DNA of 34,992 bases from a virus (taxonomy: Duplodnaviria; Heunggongvirae; Uroviricota; Caudoviricetes), in the IMG/VR virus record IMGVR_UViG_2663763256_000001, one strand, 5' to 3'. The notes under the pieces were generated by a model. It did no database searches. It was not told the origin of the DNA and saw nothing but the letters and a program-made list of their open reading frames with translations. Made by a program: the position numbers and the translations under genes. Shown here piece by piece: positions 14,915 to 30,243 of this stretch. How positions within the stretch are numbered: position 1 is the stretch's first letter; each line of letters begins with the position of its first letter.

Positions 14915-15185
14915 AATGTTACCGTAATATGTGAGTATCCATCGACTAGACACTAAGCAAAAAAGCTCCCGAAGGAGCCTTCATTTTCACTTTCTTAAAT
15001 CTAACGACAGACGGCTAACATTTAAGTATTGTGAAATATTATCAAATGTAATCATCATTGATTTACAAAAGATACATTTTGCCCCGAAAGGATTCCTGTC
15101 AGAAACATCAAAAGATGATGTTCTATACTGAGAACCATGGCAACACGGGCATCTAAAGTGAATATGGTTTGTAATATTTTCTACC

Positions 15186-15398
15186 TCAAAGTGCCACAAC
15201 ATGAACAGCCGCGGGGCCTTTAGGTCCGTTCTCAATACCAAATTCGACTTCCTGATTCTCAGTTAACGTTTTGAAATCGTTGCTCTGAATAGCTGAGAAA
15301 TGGACAAACACATCTTTGCTACCATCTTTCGGCGTGATGAAACCAAAACCTTTTTCAGGGTTAAACCATTTCACTAAACCAGTCATTTTGTTAGACAT
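15186..15398 (-). CDS. cspI: cold-shock protein, CspA family (CspI-like)
   Basis: [38 protein letters not shown] carries the cold-shock domain RNP motifs. AAGG Shine-Dalgarno; long AT-rich 5' region upstream, typical of csp genes. Confidence 0.85.
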
Positions 15399-15761
15399 CA
15401 TTATTACCTTTTGAAGAAGTTAGCCCTTGGGCAGAATGGTCCGAAAAAAAATATCAGAGAGAAAAACCAACAAGGAAATCTCAAGAGGTACAAATAATAA
15501 AATTATAACAATGACTGCTTCAGATAATTTTGTAACAAACCAGAACACCATTAACGCATGATTAACCAACCATAGCAAGGATTACTTTTGTAAAGAAAAA
15601 CACACGAATGAAACAATAGCTTTATTTATTAATAAAACGTGTCATTCTGTCTAATGACCTTTTATCTTACCCTTAAGATTTCAAGGATTTTGACTCATGG
15701 AAGAGTCCTTTTTATTTAAATTTCACATTCAGCGCTAAAAATAATCCGATTTAATATTAAT

Positions 15762-16916: not shown

Positions 16917-17213
16917 ATGAACGGTATAGATCCATTCAAACCAATCAGTAAGCAACTTGATGTGGTATTACCACAACTGACAAAACACAACGACCTTCTG
17001 GATAAAGTGTTGCCTTTTTATATTGCTGTTACCGCAAAATTATCAGGTAAAACTCGAGAAGAGGTTCTCAAATATAACATGCTGGCTTTAGAAACAATTT
17101 TTGGCTCAGAAAAAGCGGGAAAATCACCCAAAGAGCTGGCAGAATCTCAATTTGCTTATATGACAAATATAAGAGTATCCGAAATCTTTGATAAGCTACC
17201 AGACATTGAATAA
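16917..17213 (+). CDS. hypothetical protein encoded antisense to the lysis cassette
   Basis: 98-aa ORF with AGGGA Shine-Dalgarno about 9 nt upstream and its own intrinsic terminator immediately downstream. No recognizable domain. Confidence 0.55.
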   Translation: MNGIDPFKPISKQLDVVLPQLTKHNDLLDKVLPFYIAVTAKLSGKTREEVLKYNMLALETIFGSEKAGKSPKELAESQFAYMTNIRVSEIFDKLPDIE

Positions 17214-17218
17214 TTTCT

Positions 17219-17248
17219 AAGCGGCAGTAATGCCGCTTTATATTTTTT
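17219..17248 (+). terminator. intrinsic terminator of the + strand gene
   Basis: AAGCGGCA-GTAA-TGCCGCTT hairpin followed by TATATTTTTT. Confidence 0.65.
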
Positions 17249-17456
17249 CAGCCAAATCTCTCAAGAACTGTTTGGCATGTTTTACCGCAGTAACTTCATA
17301 ATAATCCAAACCAGCTCCTTCAAGTCGCTCAAGGTTGATGTTCAGATCAAAAATTTCACCGGCAAAACGTTCTTTGTCCTGTAACGTTAAGATTACCGTA
17401 ACTTTATTCTCAAAATTGCGGGTCCCTTTCACAATCAGTTCATATTTTTGAGTCAT
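17238..17456 (-). CDS. hypothetical protein between holin and endolysin
   Basis: 72-aa ORF whose ATG lies 4 nt after the holin stop (TAATTCAATG), with a GGAG-type RBS inside the holin 3' end. No recognizable similarity. Confidence 0.5.
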   Translation of the reverse strand: MTQKYELIVKGTRNFENKVTVILTLQDKERFAGEIFDLNINLERLEGAGLDYYEVTAVKHAKQFLRDLAEKI

Positions 17457-17460
17457 TGAA

Positions 17461-17676
17461 TTACTCTCCCCGTGCAGCCTTACGACGGTCCTCTCTGATT
17501 TTGAAATACAGGTTAGTCAGATATGTCAGCAGCCCAAACAGCAGACTCCCCAGCACGCCTATTGCCGCCCACTGAGACGGGGAAACCCTGTCCAGCAACT
17601 GCAGGAACCAGTAGCCCGTTCCCACCGCTGACGTGGTGTATGACACACCTGTTGTGATTTTTTCCATCTGGTCCAT
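17461..17676 (-). CDS. holin, phage 21 S-type pinholin
   Basis: C-terminal part ([50 protein letters not shown]) matches recalled S21 almost exactly. Dual-start motif MDQM. GGGAGA RBS. The track ORF extends upstream to 17781. Confidence 0.85.
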
Positions 17677-17983
17677 ACCCCGTCTCCCGTTATCCGGAAG
17701 CTGACAACAATAAAAAAGCCACCAGTTAACTACTGATGGCTCTGATAACTCATGCAAGCGTCTCAGACGACCCACTGACACTACCGGTGAGTTTAACGAT
17801 ACCTTCCATTTGACTGGCTCACTTTTTATGATGATGCCGGTGCATTTATCTCCAGCACCAGACTTTCTATCTCAACGCCATACGTTGCATTTTTGGTAAT
17901 ATCCGTCAGCGTCAGTGCATTTAGTCCCACTGCCAGACTGTCTTTTATGGCCTGGAATGCCGGGCCAGTACGATGACGTAGTA

Positions 17984-18172
17984 TCACTCCGGCTCAGTTG
18001 CACCACTGACCACCACATCACCTTCTGCTGCAATCGCCTGCATCAGGGTATAAGGGGTTATGGCCACCGGACTACCAAACGGCTGCCAGCCCTCTTTCAG
18101 TTTATGTGTCAGCTTTTCCGCAAGATCTGACGGCGGCGCCGCCCTGACAACAGCATAGTATTTAAATGCCAT
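17984..18172 (-). CDS. DUF1737-like small protein
   Basis: MAFKYYAVVRAAPPSDLAEKLTHKLKEGWQPFGSPVAI, a small conserved prophage protein usually found between Q and the holin. Confidence 0.6.
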   Translation of the reverse strand: MAFKYYAVVRAAPPSDLAEKLTHKLKEGWQPFGSPVAITPYTLMQAIAAEGDVVVSGATEPE

Positions 18173-18432
18173 GGTTCTTTCCACCATCTGGAAAATAATT
18201 CTTTAAAATACCAGACATGTAACACAGAAAAAACACAAAACCATACCTTAAATAGAAACCTGATCATCAAGCAGATATGCATGGATAAACTACAAGACGA
18301 GATATAAACCACCCTGCATTTAAATAAACAATAAACAACATCAGAAAAATAATTCTGCTCTATGGTTTATATTCAAAAATATCATTTATACTTTTCAGAA
18401 CATCACCAGCAAGGCATAAACAAGGAAACTAA

Positions 18433-18768
18433 ATGAAGTGGATTGTGATTGATACAGTTATCCAGCCATCATGCGGAATATCTTTTTCAGTCATATGGAG
18501 TAAAGTAAAATTAATAATCTGGTATCAATCGGATGCTTTCTTACCTCCTGAAAGTATATTTACACTGACTCACACAGGTATCATGCTCAATAACAAAGTG
18601 CTACCTGTAACCATTTACAACGTAGTACCATTCAATAAAACATTCTGGAATTTAATCAAAAACAGCCAGGAATGCCCTACAAATACAGATAACGTATTGA
18701 ATGAATGCTTTAATAACCGTTGCACTCTGCAAATATGTCCTTATGGACTAAAACAACAAAGTCCATAA
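18433..18768 (+). CDS. hypothetical AT-rich moron protein
   Basis: 111-aa ORF on the opposite strand to the late operon. AAGGAA Shine-Dalgarno 5 nt before the ATG. Cys-containing C-terminal half. No recognizable domain. Confidence 0.5.
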
Positions 18769-18789
18769 GGAGTTTACTCACATCTGACA

Positions 18790-18824
18790 AAATCAATATA
18801 AACAGCCCCTCCGGAGAGGGGCTG
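18790..18824 (-). terminator. strong intrinsic terminator
   Basis: Perfect 9-bp stem CAGCCCCTC-(CGGA)-GAGGGGCTG. T-rich tract (TTTATATTGATTTT) follows on the - strand. Confidence 0.6.
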
Positions 18825-19215
18825 GAGAGTGGCGCTATGTGCCATTGCATGGTGCCGGGTGCCTCCCGGTGAATTCAGTACCAGCACCTGAATCCGCGAT
18901 TATCCCATATACCTACTCGCTGATTGCCCCTCCGCACAGGGGGATTCACCATGCCAGTTTCTTTTAACAAACCCCCCGCAAACCAGACAACAGTCAACCG
19001 CCTGAATTGTGAAGTATTTAAAAATTTCTCCCGCTAACTGATACCCGGCTAACAGTCTGGTGTTTTCTTTTTCAGCAACGGGAAAGCAACAACCACCACA
19101 CTCGCCACCAGCACACCGTCAGCCAGCACTGACATTATCCGGCTGCTGCAATGCCATTCACAAAAACAGTAAGCAATCACTTTTTACCGTAACAGGTGAT
19201 AATCCAGATATGTAT

Positions 19216-19569
19216 CTACCCCAGATGAGTAATCCGAAGTTCATCCATACCACAGGTCCTGGCTATTCTGTTGTACTCCTGAACAAGAGCAAATAATTCT
19301 GAATTAGCAACCATGAACTCATCGCAAACTCTCTGTATAGCATCACTATTCAGAATAATAACGTCTCTTCCCGAAAGACGATCAGGAGTACAGAACAAAA
19401 CTGTCAAACGGCTGAAGGCCTTTGCTCGTGCTGCATTGACTATATCAATACGCTGCCTAAGGATGAAACACCCCGACGCCTCATCAATATTCACTCTACC
19501 CACACCATATGAATGATAAATATTTAATGCTGAAAAAACCATTAGACCGTATAACAAACACTCAATCAA
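19216..19569 (-). CDS. doubtful hypothetical ORF in the post-tRNA moron slot
   Basis: 117-aa track ORF starting at a TTG codon, with no convincing RBS. Overlapping + strand ORFs are equally unconvincing. Confidence 0.25.
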   Translation of the reverse strand: MIECLLYGLMVFSALNIYHSYGVGRVNIDEASGCFILRQRIDIVNAARAKAFSRLTVLFCTPDRLSGRDVIILNSDAIQRVCDEFMVANSELFALVQEYNRIARTCGMDELRITHLG

Positions 19570-19679
19570 TACTTAACAGAACTTTTATTTTTGACAAACA
19601 TATAATATTTTCAACAATATCCTGAGCCAGGTATATTCCAGTATAAGGCTCTGCCGGAAGGAATCTGGAAGAATGAATA

Positions 19680-19756
19680 TGGCGCGCTGTACTGGATTCG
19701 AACCAGTGACCGATTGCTTAGAAGGCAATTGCTCTGTCCGGCTGAGCTAACAACGC
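19680..19756 (-). tRNA. tRNA-Arg (anticodon UCU)
   Basis: The - strand reads GCGTTGT-TA-GCTC..GAGC-A-ATTGC-CTTCTAA-GCAAT-..-ACTGG-TTCGAAT-CCAGT-ACAGCGC-G-CCA. Cloverleaf with 7-bp acceptor stem, GTTCGAATC T-loop and encoded CCA. Confidence 0.85.
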
Positions 19757-19786
19757 TGAATACCGATAATGGACCGCCATCGGGGA

Positions 19787-19799
19787 CCCCCCCCCCCCC
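19787..19799. repeat. 13-nt homopolymeric C tract (G13 on the - strand)
   Basis: GGGGA followed by 13 C, in the spacer between the two tRNA genes. Confidence 0.9.
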
Positions 19800-19860
19800 G
19801 CACCAACAACCCTGTTATCGTGTCGTCTGCTCTTCCTGATAAGCTCATGGCGGTTTGTGA

Positions 19861-19936
19861 TGGTGGCCCTTGCTGGATTTGAACCAGCGACCTGGCGATT
19901 ATGAGTCGCTCGCTCTCACCACTGAGCTAAAGGACC
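19861..19936 (-). tRNA. tRNA with CAU anticodon (Ile2-lysidine type or Met; ileZ-like position)
   Basis: The - strand reads GGTCCTT-TA-GCTCAGTGGTGAGAGC-G-AGCGA-CTCATAA-TCGCC-AGGTC-GCTGG-TTCAAAT-CCAGC-AAGGGCC-A-CCA. Good cloverleaf. Confidence 0.8.
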
Positions 19937-19971
19937 GGGAGCAGAATAATAACGGTCCGTAATTAATTCCG

Positions 19972-19999
19972 CAATAAAAAACCCGCTCGGTGGCGGGTT
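19972..19999 (-). terminator. tR'-like intrinsic terminator downstream of the Q gene
   Basis: On the - strand: AACCCGC-CACCGA-GCGGGT followed by TTTTTATT, about 80 nt downstream of the Q stop. Confidence 0.65.
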
Positions 20000-20004
20000 G
20001 TAGA

Positions 20005-20075
20005 AACTCTTCTAACGTCAGGTATAAAAAGCCCATCGTTATGACGAATTTACCACAGATTCGGGAAAAATCAAC
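20005..20075 (-). promoter_or_regulatory. candidate late promoter pR' and Q-utilization region
   Basis: On the - strand between the Q stop and the terminator: TTGATT, a 16-17 nt spacer, then TAAATT. Position as in lambda and phage 82. Confidence 0.35.
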
Positions 20076-20079
20076 AACA

Positions 20080-20901
20080 CTATCGCGTTACCCTCTTTAA
20101 CTGCCGCTCCGCCCATGCCTCTTCAATGTCAAACCGAACCACCAACGTATCGTAAAAGCGTTTCACTGATTTTTTCCACGTATCAAGCGTGATAGCACTC
20201 GTCACTTTGCATATGGCATTAAATGCCTCCGTTGATGGCAGCCTTTCACAGCCACGACCACCACAACGCTGGCAATCTCTGATAACAGGCATACCACGTT
20301 TTACCGACTCTTCACGATGAATGGCGACACCACGCCCACGGCAATCCTTACAGGCGGTGGAAACCTCACCCTTTCCGCCACACTCCGGACAGGCAACTTT
20401 TACCACCTCCCTGACTTTTTTCCATTCTTCCCAGTAAGACGGATACACACCTTTCGTACACTTTGCCCATACCGGCGGCTTACCATCCGGATACTGGACC
20501 TTGTTTGTAAAAACTACGCTTTCAATAAATTTTTCCCCATAGCAACAAGGGCACTGCTTTTTACTCGCTGCGCTGCGGGCATAATCCTCAAAAGCGTACG
20601 AAGCCATAATGCGCATCACTAACGGTTTTATTTCTGCCGGAAGTTTTCTCAACGCCGCCACACGATCGCACCGACTGAGTGCATAATCTGCCAGTAATTC
20701 TGTTGCCCGCGCCCTGTCATTCATACTGATGCCCATCTTCCCCAGGAACGCAGAAAACCCCATCTCAGCCCGATTCTGTGTCATGCCCTGCGCGGCCATC
20801 ACATCAGTGATACTCAGCGCATCTTTTGACGTTGAGGCCGATGCATCGGTCAGGCAAGGGGATTTTGGGGAGTAGTATTTCGGTAAATCTTCCAGTTTCA
20901 T
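20080..20901 (-). CDS. late antiterminator Q (phage 82/QuuQ-type)
   Basis: 273 aa with paired CxxC zinc-binding motifs (CPCCYG; CPECGG; CKDCRG; CQRCGG). Directly upstream of the pR'/tR' and tRNA block, downstream of rusA. Confidence 0.7.
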   Translation of the reverse strand: MKLEDLPKYYSPKSPCLTDASASTSKDALSITDVMAAQGMTQNRAEMGFSAFLGKMGISMNDRARATELLADYALSRCDRVAALRKLPAEIKPLVMRIMASYAFEDYARSAASKKQCPCCYGEKFIESVVFTNKVQYPDGKPPVWAKCTKGVYPSYWEEWKKVREVVKVACPECGGKGEVSTACKDCRGRGVAIHREESVKRGMPVIRDCQRCGGRGCERLPSTEAFNAICKVTSAITLDTWKKSVKRFYDTLVVRFDIEEAWAERQLKRVTR

Positions 20902-21272
20902 TTTTTGACCTGCTCTTCATGCATTATGGGGTAAATCTTCACCCCCAGACGTCCACCAGATACTGGCTGACCACGAACGATATTGATTTCATCAAACTGC
21001 TCATCGTCCATTAACACTCCCGCATGCGTCAGCGCATCCAGCGGTGCTTTCAGGATATTGTCCAGGTCGCGACGACGCTTATCCGGTGGCTCTGCAATCA
21101 CCTTTATCGCCAGCCTTCCGGACAGGCTTAATTTCAGCCGCTGCTGGCGAACAATAAGCGCCACAGCACGGCGATAACGCTTTCCCTCCTCCGAGATAAA
21201 ATATGTGCTGCCACGGCGTCGCCAGTAAGTGTTCACCGTCGGCGGGTAAGGTAAAACCAAATCTATGAGCAT
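20898..21272 (-). CDS. rusA: Holliday junction resolvase RusA
   Basis: 124 aa with PPDKRRRDLDNILKAPLDALTHAGVLMDD, matching the recalled RusA core PDRRRRDLDNLQKAAFDAL. Stop overlaps the Q start. Confidence 0.85.
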   Translation of the reverse strand: MLIDLVLPYPPTVNTYWRRRGSTYFISEEGKRYRRAVALIVRQQRLKLSLSGRLAIKVIAEPPDKRRRDLDNILKAPLDALTHAGVLMDDEQFDEINIVRGQPVSGGRLGVKIYPIMHEEQVKK

Positions 21273-21284
21273 CAGTCACCTCTT

Positions 21285-22334
21285 TTACCCAAGCACGCCA
21301 GTTGCAAAGGCGTGATCAAGAAAACGAAAAATTAAATCAACCTGAGAACCATGCTTTTCTTCGAACGCCAGCGGATCCGCATGAAGCTCGTTGTGATGCT
21401 CCCGACACAGCGGTAGCGTGAAAATATCGTGAGATTTTGTCCCCATTCCGCCCTGACCATGACCAATCAGGTGATGGGGATCGTCGGCTGGCTTACCACA
21501 ACACGCACACGGCTGTGTCTTCACCCAGCGTGTGTATTTCTCGTTAACCCAGCGGCGACGTTTAGGTCGTTTCATGAAAGATTCCGGAGACTCAGGATCA
21601 ACGGCAATGCTGACCACCGTCTTTTCCTGTGGTGGGTTCTGTTGCTGGTGGGCGTGAGGCAGCGGCGCAAGATTTTTTGTGCGCTGTTTCAGTATGCTGG
21701 TGGCGGTCTGCTCTCCCGGTACGATGTCGCTTTCACGGTACATTGAGCGGATTTTTTCCGCACGCAACCCCAGCGAACGACGTAATACCGCTTCCGGTAG
21801 CGCGTCCGCCACCTGATTGCGGACCGCCCACCAGGATAATTCAGCCAGAGATAATTCACGCTCCTGCGTACCGCTTATTGCGTGACCGATGACGTCAATC
21901 ATCCATGCTGACAGGTTTTGATGAGCAAGTTGCTCGAGTGATTCGGATGTCTGGTCACGCAGCTGGTTGTCGCAGTGCCAGCACAACACCATTGCGCCGG
22001 TACCATAACGGTGAATGACGGTTTCGCTGTGATGATAATCGCCGTGTGGCCACTGGCAGGATTTAATATGGCGCAACAGCCAGTCAGACAATGCACCAGC
22101 ACCACCAGCAGCACGAATCACCCGTGCGTTACTGAAAAACGGCAGCAATGTTTTGTCTTCCACCAGCGGCTGGCGAGCGGCAGGAACGACCCCGGACGGC
22201 AGATTACGCATGCTTTTCGGTTCCGGCTCCACCAGTAACCGGGTATTGTGGAATACCGGCATGGATTCACGGCCCGGCTTAACGATCACCAGCCCGAGTT
22301 CCGGTACCAGAACAGGTCGAAGTAATACCCGCAC
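21285..22334 (-). CDS. DUF968 family protein (YdfU-like; Ref/HNH-like motif at C-terminus)
   Basis: 349 aa. C-terminal CACCGKPADDPHHLIGHGQGGMGTKSHD...CREHHNELH resembles HNH/Ref-type metal-binding motifs. nin-region position upstream of rusA. Confidence 0.6.
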   Translation of the reverse strand: MRVLLRPVLVPELGLVIVKPGRESMPVFHNTRLLVEPEPKSMRNLPSGVVPAARQPLVEDKTLLPFFSNARVIRAAGGAGALSDWLLRHIKSCQWPHGDYHHSETVIHRYGTGAMVLCWHCDNQLRDQTSESLEQLAHQNLSAWMIDVIGHAISGTQERELSLAELSWWAVRNQVADALPEAVLRRSLGLRAEKIRSMYRESDIVPGEQTATSILKQRTKNLAPLPHAHQQQNPPQEKTVVSIAVDPESPESFMKRPKRRRWVNEKYTRWVKTQPCACCGKPADDPHHLIGHGQGGMGTKSHDIFTLPLCREHHNELHADPLAFEEKHGSQVDLIFRFLDHAFATGVLG

Positions 22335-23072: not shown

Positions 23073-23228
23073 TTACTCCTCAGGTTCGTAGACTGTGAAG
23101 ACAGCGACCTCCGTCTGGCCGGTTCGGATTCGTACCTCGCAGAGGTCTTTCCTCGTTACCAGTGCCGTCACTATGACGGTTAAACAGATGACGATCAGGG
23201 CGATTAACATCGCCTTTTGCTGCTTCAT
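23073..23228 (-). CDS. hokD: Hok-family type I toxin
   Basis: Hand translation gives MKQQKAMLIALIVICLTVIVTALVTRKDLCEVRIRTGQTEVAVFTVYEPEE (51 aa), an almost exact match to recalled Hok/HokD. AAGGAGAAG RBS. Below the 60-aa cutoff of the ORF track. Confidence 0.85.
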   Translation of the reverse strand: MKQQKAMLIALIVICLTVIVTALVTRKDLCEVRIRTGQTEVAVFTVYEPEE

Positions 23229-23485
23229 AGCCTGCTTCTCCTTGACCTTTCGGTCCGTAAGAGGCTAATCTCTATGTGTCGCATAGATATGGCCTCAGAT
23301 TAATGTTAAACGTCTTGCAGGACGCGTAATGTTACCTGGGGCTTTTCTCTATCTGCCGTTGGTGTTCATGCCCGAGGCAGATAGCCTCAAGCACCCGCAG
23401 TCATTCTACTTAACTAAGATTTCCCCGCAAACCGTTTTTGTCCAGCACAATAAATATCCAACTAAACCAATGGAGTTCGCTGTAT

Positions 23486-30185: not shown

Positions 30186-30243
30186 TTTCTGGTGACGTTT
30201 GGCGGTATCAGTTTTACTCCGTGACTGCTCTGCCGCCCTTTTT
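30186..30243 (+). ncRNA. dicF: DicF small RNA
   Basis: TTTCTGGTGACGTTTGGCGGTATCAGTTTTACTCCGTGACTGCTCTGCCGCCC followed by TTTTT matches the recalled 53-nt DicF sequence. Lies between the ydfC and dicB homologs, as in Qin. Confidence 0.75.

What the first reader, a model, noticed from the sequence alone, without database searches (positions are those of the whole stretch)
18830..20079. Stx-phage-like Q-pR'-tR'-tRNA architecture with an apparently empty cargo slot
Downstream of Q there is a candidate pR', a tR' terminator, then a CAU-anticodon tRNA and a tRNA-Arg(UCU), as recalled for Shiga-toxin phages, where the toxin genes follow the tRNAs. Here the following ~850 bp (18830-19680) contains only poorly supported ORFs, then a strong terminator. 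The slot may hold decayed cargo, a non-coding element, or an unusual gene with a non-canonical start.
Basis: partly seen in the sequence, partly recalled or inferred. Interest (0 to 1): 0.55.

Follow-up and report, generated by a model that had tools for sequence, protein, structure and literature searches.

The report
Filled, partly decayed Stx-type prophage cargo slot
The stretch is the late-gene control region of a common non-toxigenic E. coli prophage, and the place where Shiga-toxin phages carry their toxin genes is not empty: it holds a small conserved but usually unannotated gene, the remains of a tciA/tciB module, and a known small RNA, so it is ordinary.

Summary
All features lie on the minus strand. 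The architecture is real:
- Q (PF03589).
- A pR' whose -10 element and sigma-70 pause element are identical to lambda's.
- A tR' terminator.
- A tRNA-Ile2-type CAU tRNA, 75/76 identical to ileZ.
- A decayed argN.
- tRNA-Arg(UCU).

Homology with an Stx2 phage breaks at 19671/19672 and resumes at 19012. Window 19013-19671 is therefore allelic to stx2AB.

The slot is not empty. It contains:
- ORF-X (19216-19494, GTG start, 92 aa, phrog_2873). It is intact, with dN/dS 0.21-0.32. Its DNA is in 1312 of 5426 complete E. coli genomes and is almost never annotated.
- A ~25-nt relic of tciA.
- An N-terminally remodelled tciB/DUF3927 ORF (19049-19180).

The Rfam sRNA STnc100 follows (18794-18983, 131.7 bits). 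The same element follows stx2B.

More distant relatives carry ORF-X, tciA and tciB, in that order, just upstream of the holin. The window therefore holds a partly decayed tci-type cargo cassette.

Its three alternatives (decayed cargo, non-coding element, non-canonical start) are each partly right. The arrangement is widespread and built from known parts, so interest is low. The function of ORF-X remains unknown.

The parts
20080..20901 (-). Antiterminator Q (273 aa, PF03589 type)
   Evidence: Pfam Antiterm E 1.6e-51. phrog_127 E 6.9e-110. PGAP calls it 'antitermination protein'.
20032..20074 (-). Late promoter pR': -35 TTGATT (20069-20074), 16-nt spacer, -10 TAAATT (20047-20052), then the sigma-70 pause element AACGATGGG (20032-20040). 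Predicted +1 is at about 20040.
   Evidence: TAAATT-N6-AACGATGGG is identical to lambda pR' (L016 776-796). One match in the window against 0.01 expected. The generic promoter scan missed it because it scores 8 of 12.
19973..19999 (-). tR' intrinsic terminator. Together with pR' it would give a short RNA of about 67 nt.
   Evidence: Stem AACCCGC...GCGGGTT followed by TTTTTAT. The hairpin appears in the MFE fold.
19861..19936 (-). tRNA with CAU anticodon, ileZ-type (tRNA-Ile2, reads AUA after lysidine modification)
   Evidence: ARAGORN. Rfam 69.4 bits. 75/76 identical to ileZ of an Stx2a phage, and similar to P1 trnI. PGAP calls it tRNA-Ile.
19757..19860 (-). Relic of argN (tRNA-Arg UCG): both ends are retained and the anticodon arm is replaced. 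It contains a G13 run at 19787-19799.
   Evidence: Collinear alignment with ileZ-argN-argO of the Stx2a phage. Neither ARAGORN nor Rfam calls a tRNA here. The G-run length varies between relatives.
19680..19756 (-). tRNA-Arg (UCU), argO-type
   Evidence: ARAGORN. Rfam 68 bits. One mismatch to argO.
19216..19494 (-). ORF-X: 92 aa from GTG 19494 (108 aa if read from ATG 19542). phrog_2873, predicted two-helix hairpin, function unknown.
   Evidence: phrog_2873 E 3.8e-70 over the full length. Distant homologues are 91-95 aa and start at the GTG position. dN/dS 0.21-0.32, with no stops or indels at 67-75% nt identity. AF2 pLDDT 84. Present in 1312/5426 E. coli genomes and unannotated in 29/30 sampled rows.
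19181..19208 (-). Relic of the 3' end of tciA (TerB-like) and of the tciA/tciB junction
   Evidence: 86-89% identical to the last bases of tciA in phages JLK-2012 and Evi. About 600 bp are missing relative to L020, which carries ORF-X, tciA and tciB. tblastn with four TciA proteins finds nothing in the window.
19049..19180 (-). tciB-like DUF3927 ORF: 43 aa, GTG start, first hydrophobic segment lost
   Evidence: PF13064 E 9.3e-27. phrog_1470 'TciB-like' E 2.6e-12, matching residues 12-40 only. Indels at the 5' end relative to full-length tciB.
18794..18983 (-). STnc100-family sRNA gene. The same element lies just downstream of stx2B in Stx2 phages.
   Evidence: RF02076, 131.7 bits against a gathering score of 47, model positions 1-206 of 206. 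Homologous copies follow stx2B, tciB and TolA-like genes in other phages.
18803..18824 (-). It faces the 3' end of iraM.
   Evidence: 9-bp stem with 7 GC pairs, followed by TTTATATT. It forms the 3' helix of the Rfam model.
18433..18768 (+). iraM homologue (anti-adaptor): a neighbouring opposite-strand cargo gene (moron), outside the slot
   Evidence: NF007393, 161.4 bits against a cutoff of 121. PGAP calls it 'anti-adapter protein IraM'. GC 0.35.
17826..18187 (-). Relic of the nanS-p/yjhS esterase gene (aa 1-74 and 572-617 of 617)
   Evidence: tblastn with JLK-2012 YjhS. PGAP flags both pieces as incomplete. phrog_143 matches both ends only.
17461..17676 (-). Class II holin, first lysis gene downstream of the slot
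   Evidence: PF04971 E 3.7e-32. PGAP gene of 216 nt.

Best explanation
This is the late-operon leader and cargo (moron) slot of a Qin-like, non-Stx lambdoid prophage, read on the minus strand.

Mechanism (inferred from the lambda and Stx-phage paradigm):
- pR' fires constitutively.
- Without Q, RNA polymerase stops at tR' after about 67 nt.
- After induction, Q loads onto the polymerase paused at the AACGATGGG element.
- The modified polymerase then reads through tR', the tRNA genes, the cargo, the STnc100 terminator, the antisense strand of iraM and the nanS-p relic, into the holin and lysozyme genes.

The two tRNAs supply AUA and AGA/AGG decoding.

The cargo position that carries stx2AB in Stx2 phages is window 19013-19671. 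Here it holds a partly decayed tci-type cassette:
- an intact 92-aa helical-hairpin protein, ORF-X (phrog_2873);
- the last ~25 nt of a deleted tciA;
- an N-terminally remodelled tciB/DUF3927 ORF.

The cassette is closed by the STnc100 sRNA gene, whose terminator is the 'strong terminator'. The conserved tRNA block upstream and the STnc100 block downstream act as homologous flanks. Recombination between them lets alternative cargo be exchanged between phages: stx2AB, tciAB, ORF-X plus tciB', TolA-like and AraC-like genes.

Shown here: the anatomy, the homologies, the cassette boundaries, the coding status of ORF-X and the deletion of tciA.

Inferred: Q-dependent read-through, expression of ORF-X and tciB', sRNA activity of STnc100, and cassette exchange by recombination.
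For: Control region:
- Q, tRNAs and terminators.
- pR' -10 and pause element identical to lambda's.

Cassette boundaries:
- Homology with the Stx2a phage breaks at 19671/19672 and resumes at 19012, flanking stx2AB in that phage.
- The 19012 breakpoint recurs in phage 640R1.

ORF-X:
- phrog_2873 full length.
- dN/dS 0.21-0.32 in three pairwise comparisons, with no stops or indels.
- pLDDT 84.
- Relatives of 91-95 aa.
- The order ORF-X, tciA, tciB, holin in L009-L011 and L020-L021.

tci module:
- tciA 3' relic and a gap of about 600 bp.
- JLK-2012 has the order Q, tRNAs, tciA, tciB, yjhS, S, with tciB-to-STnc100 homology to the window; P1 links tciAB to tRNAs.

STnc100:
- 131.7 bits.
- Copies close different cassettes in L002, L004 and L005.
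- It lies 75 nt after stx2 and overlaps the Hfq-bound sRNA EcOnc27 (PMC12370729, PMC12711010).

Codon usage and distribution:
- ORF-X has 8.7% AUA+AGA+AGG codons; stx2A has 7.2% and Q 2.9%.
- The arrangement is widespread: 1183 genomes hold at least 80% of 18780-19700.
Against: - There are no expression data.
- Neither ORF has a good Shine-Dalgarno sequence, and both use GTG.
- PGAP and RAST do not call ORF-X.
- The tciB-like ORF lacks the first hydrophobic segment. Its group-2 counterpart is frame-broken, so it may be dead.
- No convincing sigma-70 promoter was found for ORF-X or STnc100, so expression in the lysogen is unresolved.
- The nine STnc100 copies show almost no covariation. The pairs are mostly invariant, so the structure rests on the Rfam model.
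- Q here is PF03589 type while the pause element is lambda-like. Whether this Q uses that pause was not tested.
Confidence: 0.82

Rival explanations
1. The slot is functionally empty. ORF-X and the DUF3927 ORF are both dead relics, and only the terminator matters.
For: Both ORFs have weak ribosome-binding sites and GTG starts. ORF-X is not called by PGAP or RAST. Decay is plain nearby, in the argN, tciA and nanS-p relics. DUF3927 ORFs in E. coli have many truncated lengths, from 23 to 64 aa.
Against: ORF-X stays open over 92 codons at 67-75% nt identity, with dN/dS 0.21-0.32 and an excess of third-position changes (25/23/43). It matches its PHROG profile end to end. It gives a confident fold.
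Confidence: 0.08
2. ORF-X plus the 43-aa DUF3927 ORF is an intact, selected two-gene module, not a decayed three-gene module. The short TciB variant would be functional.
For: The Pfam DUF3927 profile aligns to residues 2-43. The odd N-terminus CFCEWHC recurs as CFCDWWC in the 72%-identical group-2 cassette. The ORF is intact and PGAP-annotated in more than a thousand genomes.
Against: Bases derived from the tciA 3' end sit between the two ORFs. The native start and first hydrophobic segment are lost. The group-2 copy is frame-broken right after CFCDWWC. Nearly all copies are at least 95% identical, so selection on them cannot be measured.
Confidence: 0.25
3. The STnc100 element works here only as a transcription terminator and recombination linker, not as a trans-acting Hfq-dependent sRNA.
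For: No clear promoter lies upstream. It sits at the boundary of every alternative cassette examined. Several relatives keep the core but swap the terminator hairpin.
Against: The core blocks (GCAUGGUGAAUCCCCCUGUGCGGAGGGGC and UCACCGGGAGGCACCCGGCACCAUGC) are almost invariant, while the flanks are 60-70% identical. The O157 homologue region is Hfq-bound and has overexpression phenotypes (PMC12711010). It was also detected in outer-membrane vesicles (PMC12370729).
Confidence: 0.3
4. The ORF-X region is a non-coding regulatory RNA or an antisense gene. Plus-strand ORFs 19313-19516 or 19509-19625 are sometimes called by pipelines.
For: RAST calls a short plus-strand ORF here in mEp460_ev081. The antisense frame rc1 also shows a low dN/dS (0.23), as expected from codon-phase symmetry.
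Against: The antisense frames contain 2-10 stops in both copies. The plus-strand ORFs have no Pfam or PHROG match. Rfam finds nothing in 18984-19679 at E up to 1.
Confidence: 0.03

Closest known systems
Stx2-converting lambdoid phages (933W/Sp5 type; here Stx2a_WGPS8, NC_049944)
   Same: The order is the same: Q, pR'/tR', ileZ, argN, argO, cargo, STnc100 (EcOnc27 region), nanS-p, holin. The tRNA block is 86% identical, and the STnc100 block onwards about 70% identical.
   Different: There are no stx genes; 659 bp of ORF-X, tciA relic and tciB' replace 1369 bp. Q and pR'-tR' are of a different type, with no homology upstream of 19976. argN and nanS-p are decayed. iraM is inserted.
Escherichia phage JLK-2012 (O55:H7) and phage Evi: Q, tRNAs, tciA, tciB, STnc100, yjhS, S
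   Same: The tciB 3' part and STnc100 are 92.6% identical to JLK-2012 (window 19148-18838). The tciA/tciB junction is recognisable. Evi shares the same Q type and the exact pR' pattern.
   Different: Those phages keep an intact tciA (143 aa) and a full-length tciB (54-55 aa), and they lack ORF-X. JLK-2012 carries different tRNAs (Asn, Thr, Gly).
Bacteriophage P1 tciA-tciB-tciC cluster with adjacent tRNA genes
   Same: A TerB-like tciA plus a DUF3927 tciB linked to phage tRNAs, including tRNA-Ile2. The PHROG name of the window ORF comes from P1 TciB.
   Different: In P1 the genes belong to an early, C1-controlled operon, not a Q-dependent late operon. The function is assigned 'by homology' only. 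P1 has no ORF-X and no STnc100.
Lambda pR' - 6S RNA - tR' late control unit; StxS of Stx phages (PMC7547250)
   Same: Identical -10 (TAAATT), spacing and AACGATGGG pause element. A terminator follows shortly after, giving a short constitutive RNA.
   Different: Q belongs to another family (PF03589). The predicted short RNA is about 67 nt, against 194 nt for lambda 6S. It has no sequence homology to the Stx2-phage leader. Its fold is not unusually stable (z -1.1).
Rfam STnc100 (RF02076) / EcOnc27 / PasD family of prophage sRNAs
   Same: Full-length covariance-model match. The position is the same: downstream of post-Q cargo and near a PF03589-type Q, as reported for PasD (bioRxiv 10.64898/2026.05.13.724894).
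   Different: Expression, 5' end, Hfq binding and targets of this copy are untested. The variable central loop is shorter than in the Stx2 copy.

Membership tests
Lambdoid Q-dependent late transcription unit | Q antiterminator gene immediately upstream of the late promoter | tested here: met
   PF03589 E 1.6e-51. The Q stop codon lies 5 nt before the -35 element.
Lambdoid Q-dependent late transcription unit | Sigma-70 promoter with a promoter-proximal -10-like pause element | tested here: met
   TAAATT-N6-AACGATGGG is identical to lambda. One match against 0.01 expected.
Lambdoid Q-dependent late transcription unit | Intrinsic terminator tR' shortly downstream of pR' | tested here: met
   Stem 19980-19999 plus a T run.
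Lambdoid Q-dependent late transcription unit | Q-dependent read-through of tR' into the lysis genes | not testable with these tools
   Needs transcription data or a reporter assay.
tRNA (RF00005) | Covariance-model score above the gathering threshold and a cloverleaf with an anticodon | tested here: met
   69.4 and 68 bits against a threshold of 29. ARAGORN reports anticodons CAT and TCT.
tRNA-Ile2 (ileX/ileZ type) | CAU anticodon with a body like known lysidine-modified tRNA-Ile2 | tested here: met
   75/76 identical to ileZ and similar to P1 trnI. PGAP names it tRNA-Ile. The lysidine modification itself is not testable here.
Shiga toxin operon | stxA and stxB genes between the tRNAs and STnc100 | tested here: not met
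   No homology to L004 3087-4455, which carries stx2AB. The slot ORFs match phrog_2873 and DUF3927 instead.
STnc100 sRNA (RF02076) | Score at or above the Rfam gathering score over the whole model | tested here: met
   131.7 bits against 47, model positions 1-206 of 206.
STnc100 sRNA (RF02076) | Expressed as a discrete, Hfq-associated RNA | not testable with these tools
   Known only for O157 homologues (PMC12711010).
TciB / DUF3927 (PF13064) | Profile score above the Pfam gathering score | tested here: met
   93.2 bits against 25.
TciB / DUF3927 (PF13064) | Full-length protein of about 50-55 aa with two hydrophobic segments, its start overlapping the tciA stop | tested here: not met
   43 aa. 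The first segment is replaced by IAYCFCEWHC, the native start is lost and tciA is absent.
TciA / TerB-like (phrog_632) | A TerB-like ORF of about 141 aa upstream of tciB | tested here: not met
   tblastn with four TciA proteins finds nothing in the window. Only about 25 nt of the 3' end remain.
phrog_2873 (ORF-X family) | Full-length profile match and a conserved open frame | tested here: met
   E 3.8e-70 over profile positions 1-108. dN/dS 0.21-0.32.
Known anti-phage defence proteins (PADLOC) | Match to any PADLOC model | tested here: not met
   No hit for ORF-X, tciB', IraM or a TciA relative.

The most novel reading that the evidence does not exclude
ORF-X would be a genuine lysogenic-conversion or phage-host interaction factor. 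It is a 92-aa two-helix protein family with only about 20 clusters among 1.84 billion representative proteins. It is almost never annotated in RefSeq, yet its DNA is present in about 24% of complete E. coli genomes. It would be expressed, like Stx, from the Q-dependent late transcript with help from the adjacent rare-codon tRNAs. It would work together with the TerB-like TciA/TciB membrane module, next to which it is found in distant relatives.
Probability: 0.25. Interest if true: 0.45.

Novelty: already known. Interest (0 to 1): 0.2.

Why it matters
- **Comparative use.** In a very common non-toxigenic prophage, the exact position that carries stx2AB in Stx phages is occupied by a different small cassette. 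That cassette is bounded by the same tRNA and STnc100 flanks. This helps in reading how toxin and other cargo cassettes are swapped between lambdoid phages.
- **Annotation gaps.** A conserved small ORF is missing from RefSeq annotation in more than a thousand genomes. A spurious ORF is called antisense to STnc100.

No new kind of system is involved.

Tried and rejected
ORF-X function:
- Pfam, NCBIfam and PADLOC give no hit.
- A PDB sequence-profile search gives only E > 0.3.
- Foldseek against PDB and BFVD gives only generic helical hairpins, E > 0.1.
- tblastn against 50,697 phage records finds one unannotated copy.

Literature:
- A search for TciA/TciB returned only Trypanosoma cruzi genotype papers.
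- A search for DUF3927 returned one irrelevant paper.
- A search for ileZ/argN/argO found none.

Promoters:
- The generic scan found no more sites than in shuffles (7 against 7.1).
- It found none convincing for ORF-X or STnc100.
- The conserved TCACAATTCAG and TTGAC(A/T) motifs upstream of STnc100 could not be assigned to a promoter.

RNA structure:
- The pR'-tR' RNA fold is not unusual (z -1.1).
- The sub-threshold Trp_leader and Plastid-ycf2 Rfam hits were dismissed as the terminator and a tRNA antisense strand.
- A terminator-like site inside ORF-X (19362-19380, 3 GC pairs) was treated as chance.
- Covariation in STnc100 is uninformative because the pairs are nearly invariant.

Remote ORF-X relatives P0029 (near a fimbrial operon) and P0033 (in a Mu-like tail region) do not share the genomic context and were not used.
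Full report
**Orientation and context.**
All relevant genes lie on the minus strand. The finding interval and its flanks (window 17000-21500) are 100% identical to the chromosome of E. coli KKa014; the window as a whole corresponds to the same region but is not identical throughout. There it forms a Qin-like lambdoid prophage next to rspB. That prophage carries an integrase, dicB, hokD/sok, a DUF968 gene, rusA, Q, lysis genes, cspI, terminase and tail genes. Rfam also finds DicF, sok and the cspA thermoregulator elsewhere in the window.

**Check of the observation.**
- Q is 20080-20901 (PF03589, E 1.6e-51).
- Five bases after its stop codon lies TTGATT (20069-20074). A 16-nt spacer follows, then TAAATT (20047-20052), six bases, then AACGATGGG (20032-20040).
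- TAAATT-N6-AACGATGGG is exactly the -10 element and sigma-70 pause element of lambda pR'. It occurs once in the window, against 0.01 expected. It is also present in phage Evi, which has the same Q type.
- The tR' hairpin is 19980-19999, followed by a T run. This predicts a short RNA of about 67 nt. That RNA would be analogous to lambda 6S RNA and StxS (PMC7547250), but it is not homologous to the Stx2-phage leader.
- ARAGORN and Rfam confirm a CAU tRNA (19861-19936, 69.4 bits) and tRNA-Arg UCU (19680-19756, 68 bits).
- The CAU tRNA is 75/76 identical to ileZ of an Stx2a phage and resembles P1 tRNA-Ile2.
- The 104 nt between the two tRNAs align collinearly with argN. The anticodon arm has been replaced, and the segment carries a G13 run. 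It is a dead third tRNA.
- The strong terminator is 18803-18824.

**Boundaries of the cargo position.**
The comparison is with Stx2a_WGPS8.
- Homology covers window 19672-19976 (the tRNAs, 86%).
- It resumes at 19012 and runs to 18015 (70%).
- The intervening 1369 bp of the Stx2 phage carry stx2A and stx2B.
- The allelic segment in the window is therefore 19013-19671 (659 bp).
- The 19012 breakpoint recurs in phage vB_EcoS-640R1.

**Contents of the slot: ORF-X.**
- The ORF listed as 19216-19569 matches phrog_2873 from its residue 10 to its end, covering profile positions 1-108 (E 3.8e-70).
- Only 23 clusters match in the 5.8-billion-protein collection, and only 20 in an exhaustive HMMER search of 1.84 billion representatives.
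- The more distant members are 91-95 aa and begin at the position of GTG 19494. The likely product is therefore 92 aa.
- dN/dS is 0.21-0.32 in three pairwise comparisons among copies at 67-75% nt identity (window, L005 and L020). There are no stops or indels. Changes by codon position are 25/23/43. All other frames contain stops. This is a real coding gene.
- AlphaFold gives a two-helix hairpin (pLDDT 84). It has no specific structural or sequence relative and no PADLOC match.
- Its DNA is in 1312 of 5426 complete E. coli genomes. Nothing is annotated under it in 29 of 30 evenly sampled records.
- Eight of its 92 codons are AUA, AGA or AGG, the codons served by the adjacent tRNAs. That is 8.7%, against 7.2% for stx2A and 2.9% for Q.

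**Contents of the slot: the tci remains.**
- In more distant relatives, ORF-X is followed by a TerB-like gene (phrog_632, P1 TciA-like). A DUF3927 gene (TciB-like) comes next, then the holin (L009-L011 and L020-L021).
- Phages JLK-2012 and Evi carry tciA-tciB directly after Q and the tRNAs. P1 links tciABC to tRNA genes.
- In the window, bases 19181-19208 are 86-89% identical to the last bases of tciA and the tciA/tciB junction.
- About 600 bp are missing relative to L020. No TciA-like coding sequence remains.
- The following ORF (19049-19180, GTG start, 43 aa) scores 93 bits on Pfam DUF3927. It has lost the native start and the first hydrophobic segment through small indels.
- Its counterpart in the group-2 cassette is frame-broken. 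DUF3927 ORFs in E. coli come in many truncated lengths.
- I regard it as probably a relic. The shared CFC(E/D)W(H/W)C N-terminus leaves room for a functional short variant.

**The non-coding element.**
- 18794-18983 is a full-length match to Rfam STnc100 (131.7 bits against a gathering score of 47).
- Its last helix is the strong terminator.
- The same element follows stx2B in the Stx2 phage, tciB in JLK-2012 and Evi, and a TolA-like gene in L005. It occurs twice in L002 and in L005, each time closing a cassette.
- Two core blocks are nearly invariant while the surroundings are 60-70% identical. Covariation is therefore uninformative.
- Published work places STnc100 75 nt after stx2 and reports it in outer-membrane vesicles (PMC12370729). 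Other work shows it overlaps the Hfq-bound sRNA EcOnc27/sRNA103 (PMC12711010). A preprint relates it to PasD, which is associated with PF03589-type Q genes (bioRxiv 10.64898/2026.05.13.724894).
- I could not assign a promoter to it.

**Downstream of the slot.**
- A convergent iraM homologue lies at 18433-18768 (NF007393, 161 bits).
- A nanS-p/yjhS esterase relic follows, retaining residues 1-74 and 572-617 of 617.
- The class II holin comes next.
- The whole interval from Q to the holin is thus an Stx-phage-type late region with several decayed parts.

**Mechanism (inferred).**
- The late promoter is constitutive, and tR' stops transcription in the lysogen.
- After induction, Q engages the paused polymerase. 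It reads through tR', the tRNAs, ORF-X/tciB' and STnc100 into the lysis genes.
- The cargo is therefore co-expressed with lysis, as stx2 is.
- The tRNA block and the STnc100 block serve as conserved flanks for cassette exchange.

**Verdict.**
- The architecture is confirmed.
- "Empty" is refuted.
- The arrangement is widespread and made of known parts: 1183 genomes hold at least 80% of 18780-19700.
- The only loose end of some interest is the unannotated ORF-X family and its link to tciA-tciB.

Noticed in passing
window 19757-19860 (-), G run 19787-19799: A decayed argN (tRNA-Arg UCG) lies between the two intact tRNAs. Both ends are retained and the anticodon arm is replaced. It carries a G13 homopolymer that reads GGGGGCGGG in phages mEp460_ev081 and 640R1.
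   Followed up: partly
window 17826-18187 (-): Relic of the nanS-p/yjhS sialate esterase gene, which follows stx in Stx phages. Only residues 1-74 and 572-617 of 617 remain, implying an internal deletion of about 1.5 kb. PGAP flags both pieces as incomplete.
   Followed up: yes
window 18433-18768 (+): An AT-rich (GC 0.35) iraM anti-adaptor homologue lies on the opposite strand, between STnc100 and the nanS-p relic. It is convergent with the late operon, so late transcription would run antisense through it.
   Followed up: partly
window 18839-18964 (+): PGAP and a phage annotation call a 'hypothetical protein' ORF here. It lies antisense to the STnc100 RNA and is almost certainly spurious.
   Followed up: partly
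window 19216-19542; E. coli genome collection: ORF-X DNA is present in 1312 of 5426 complete E. coli genomes. No feature is annotated under it in 29 of 30 evenly sampled RefSeq records, which is a systematic annotation gap. Only one of 50,697 phage records carries it.
   Followed up: yes
L002 3495-3683 and 3959-4152; L005 1344-1556 and 4650-4839: Related phages and prophages carry two STnc100 copies in the post-Q region, each at the 3' end of a different cargo cassette (TolA-like; AraC-like plus IS plus ORF-X). This suggests the element marks cassette boundaries.
   Followed up: partly
window 18985-19012 (-) and homologues (alignment A7): The motifs TCACAATTCAG and GTTGAC(A/T)GTTG just upstream of the Rfam 5' end of STnc100 are conserved across otherwise diverged copies. 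Their role (promoter, processing site or part of the RNA) is unresolved.
   Followed up: no
L005 1933-3990; L020 2142-2870: In two lineages an AraC-type regulator gene (HTH_18, about 241 aa) sits directly upstream of ORF-X. In L005 an IS3-family element is inserted between them and alters the ORF-X N-terminus.
   Followed up: no
window 15140-15556 (-), 23226-23396 (-), 30187-30238 (+): Rfam hits above the gathering score elsewhere in the window: cspA thermoregulator (cspI leader), sok antitoxin RNA (hokD locus) and DicF. These are consistent with a Qin-like prophage.
   Followed up: no
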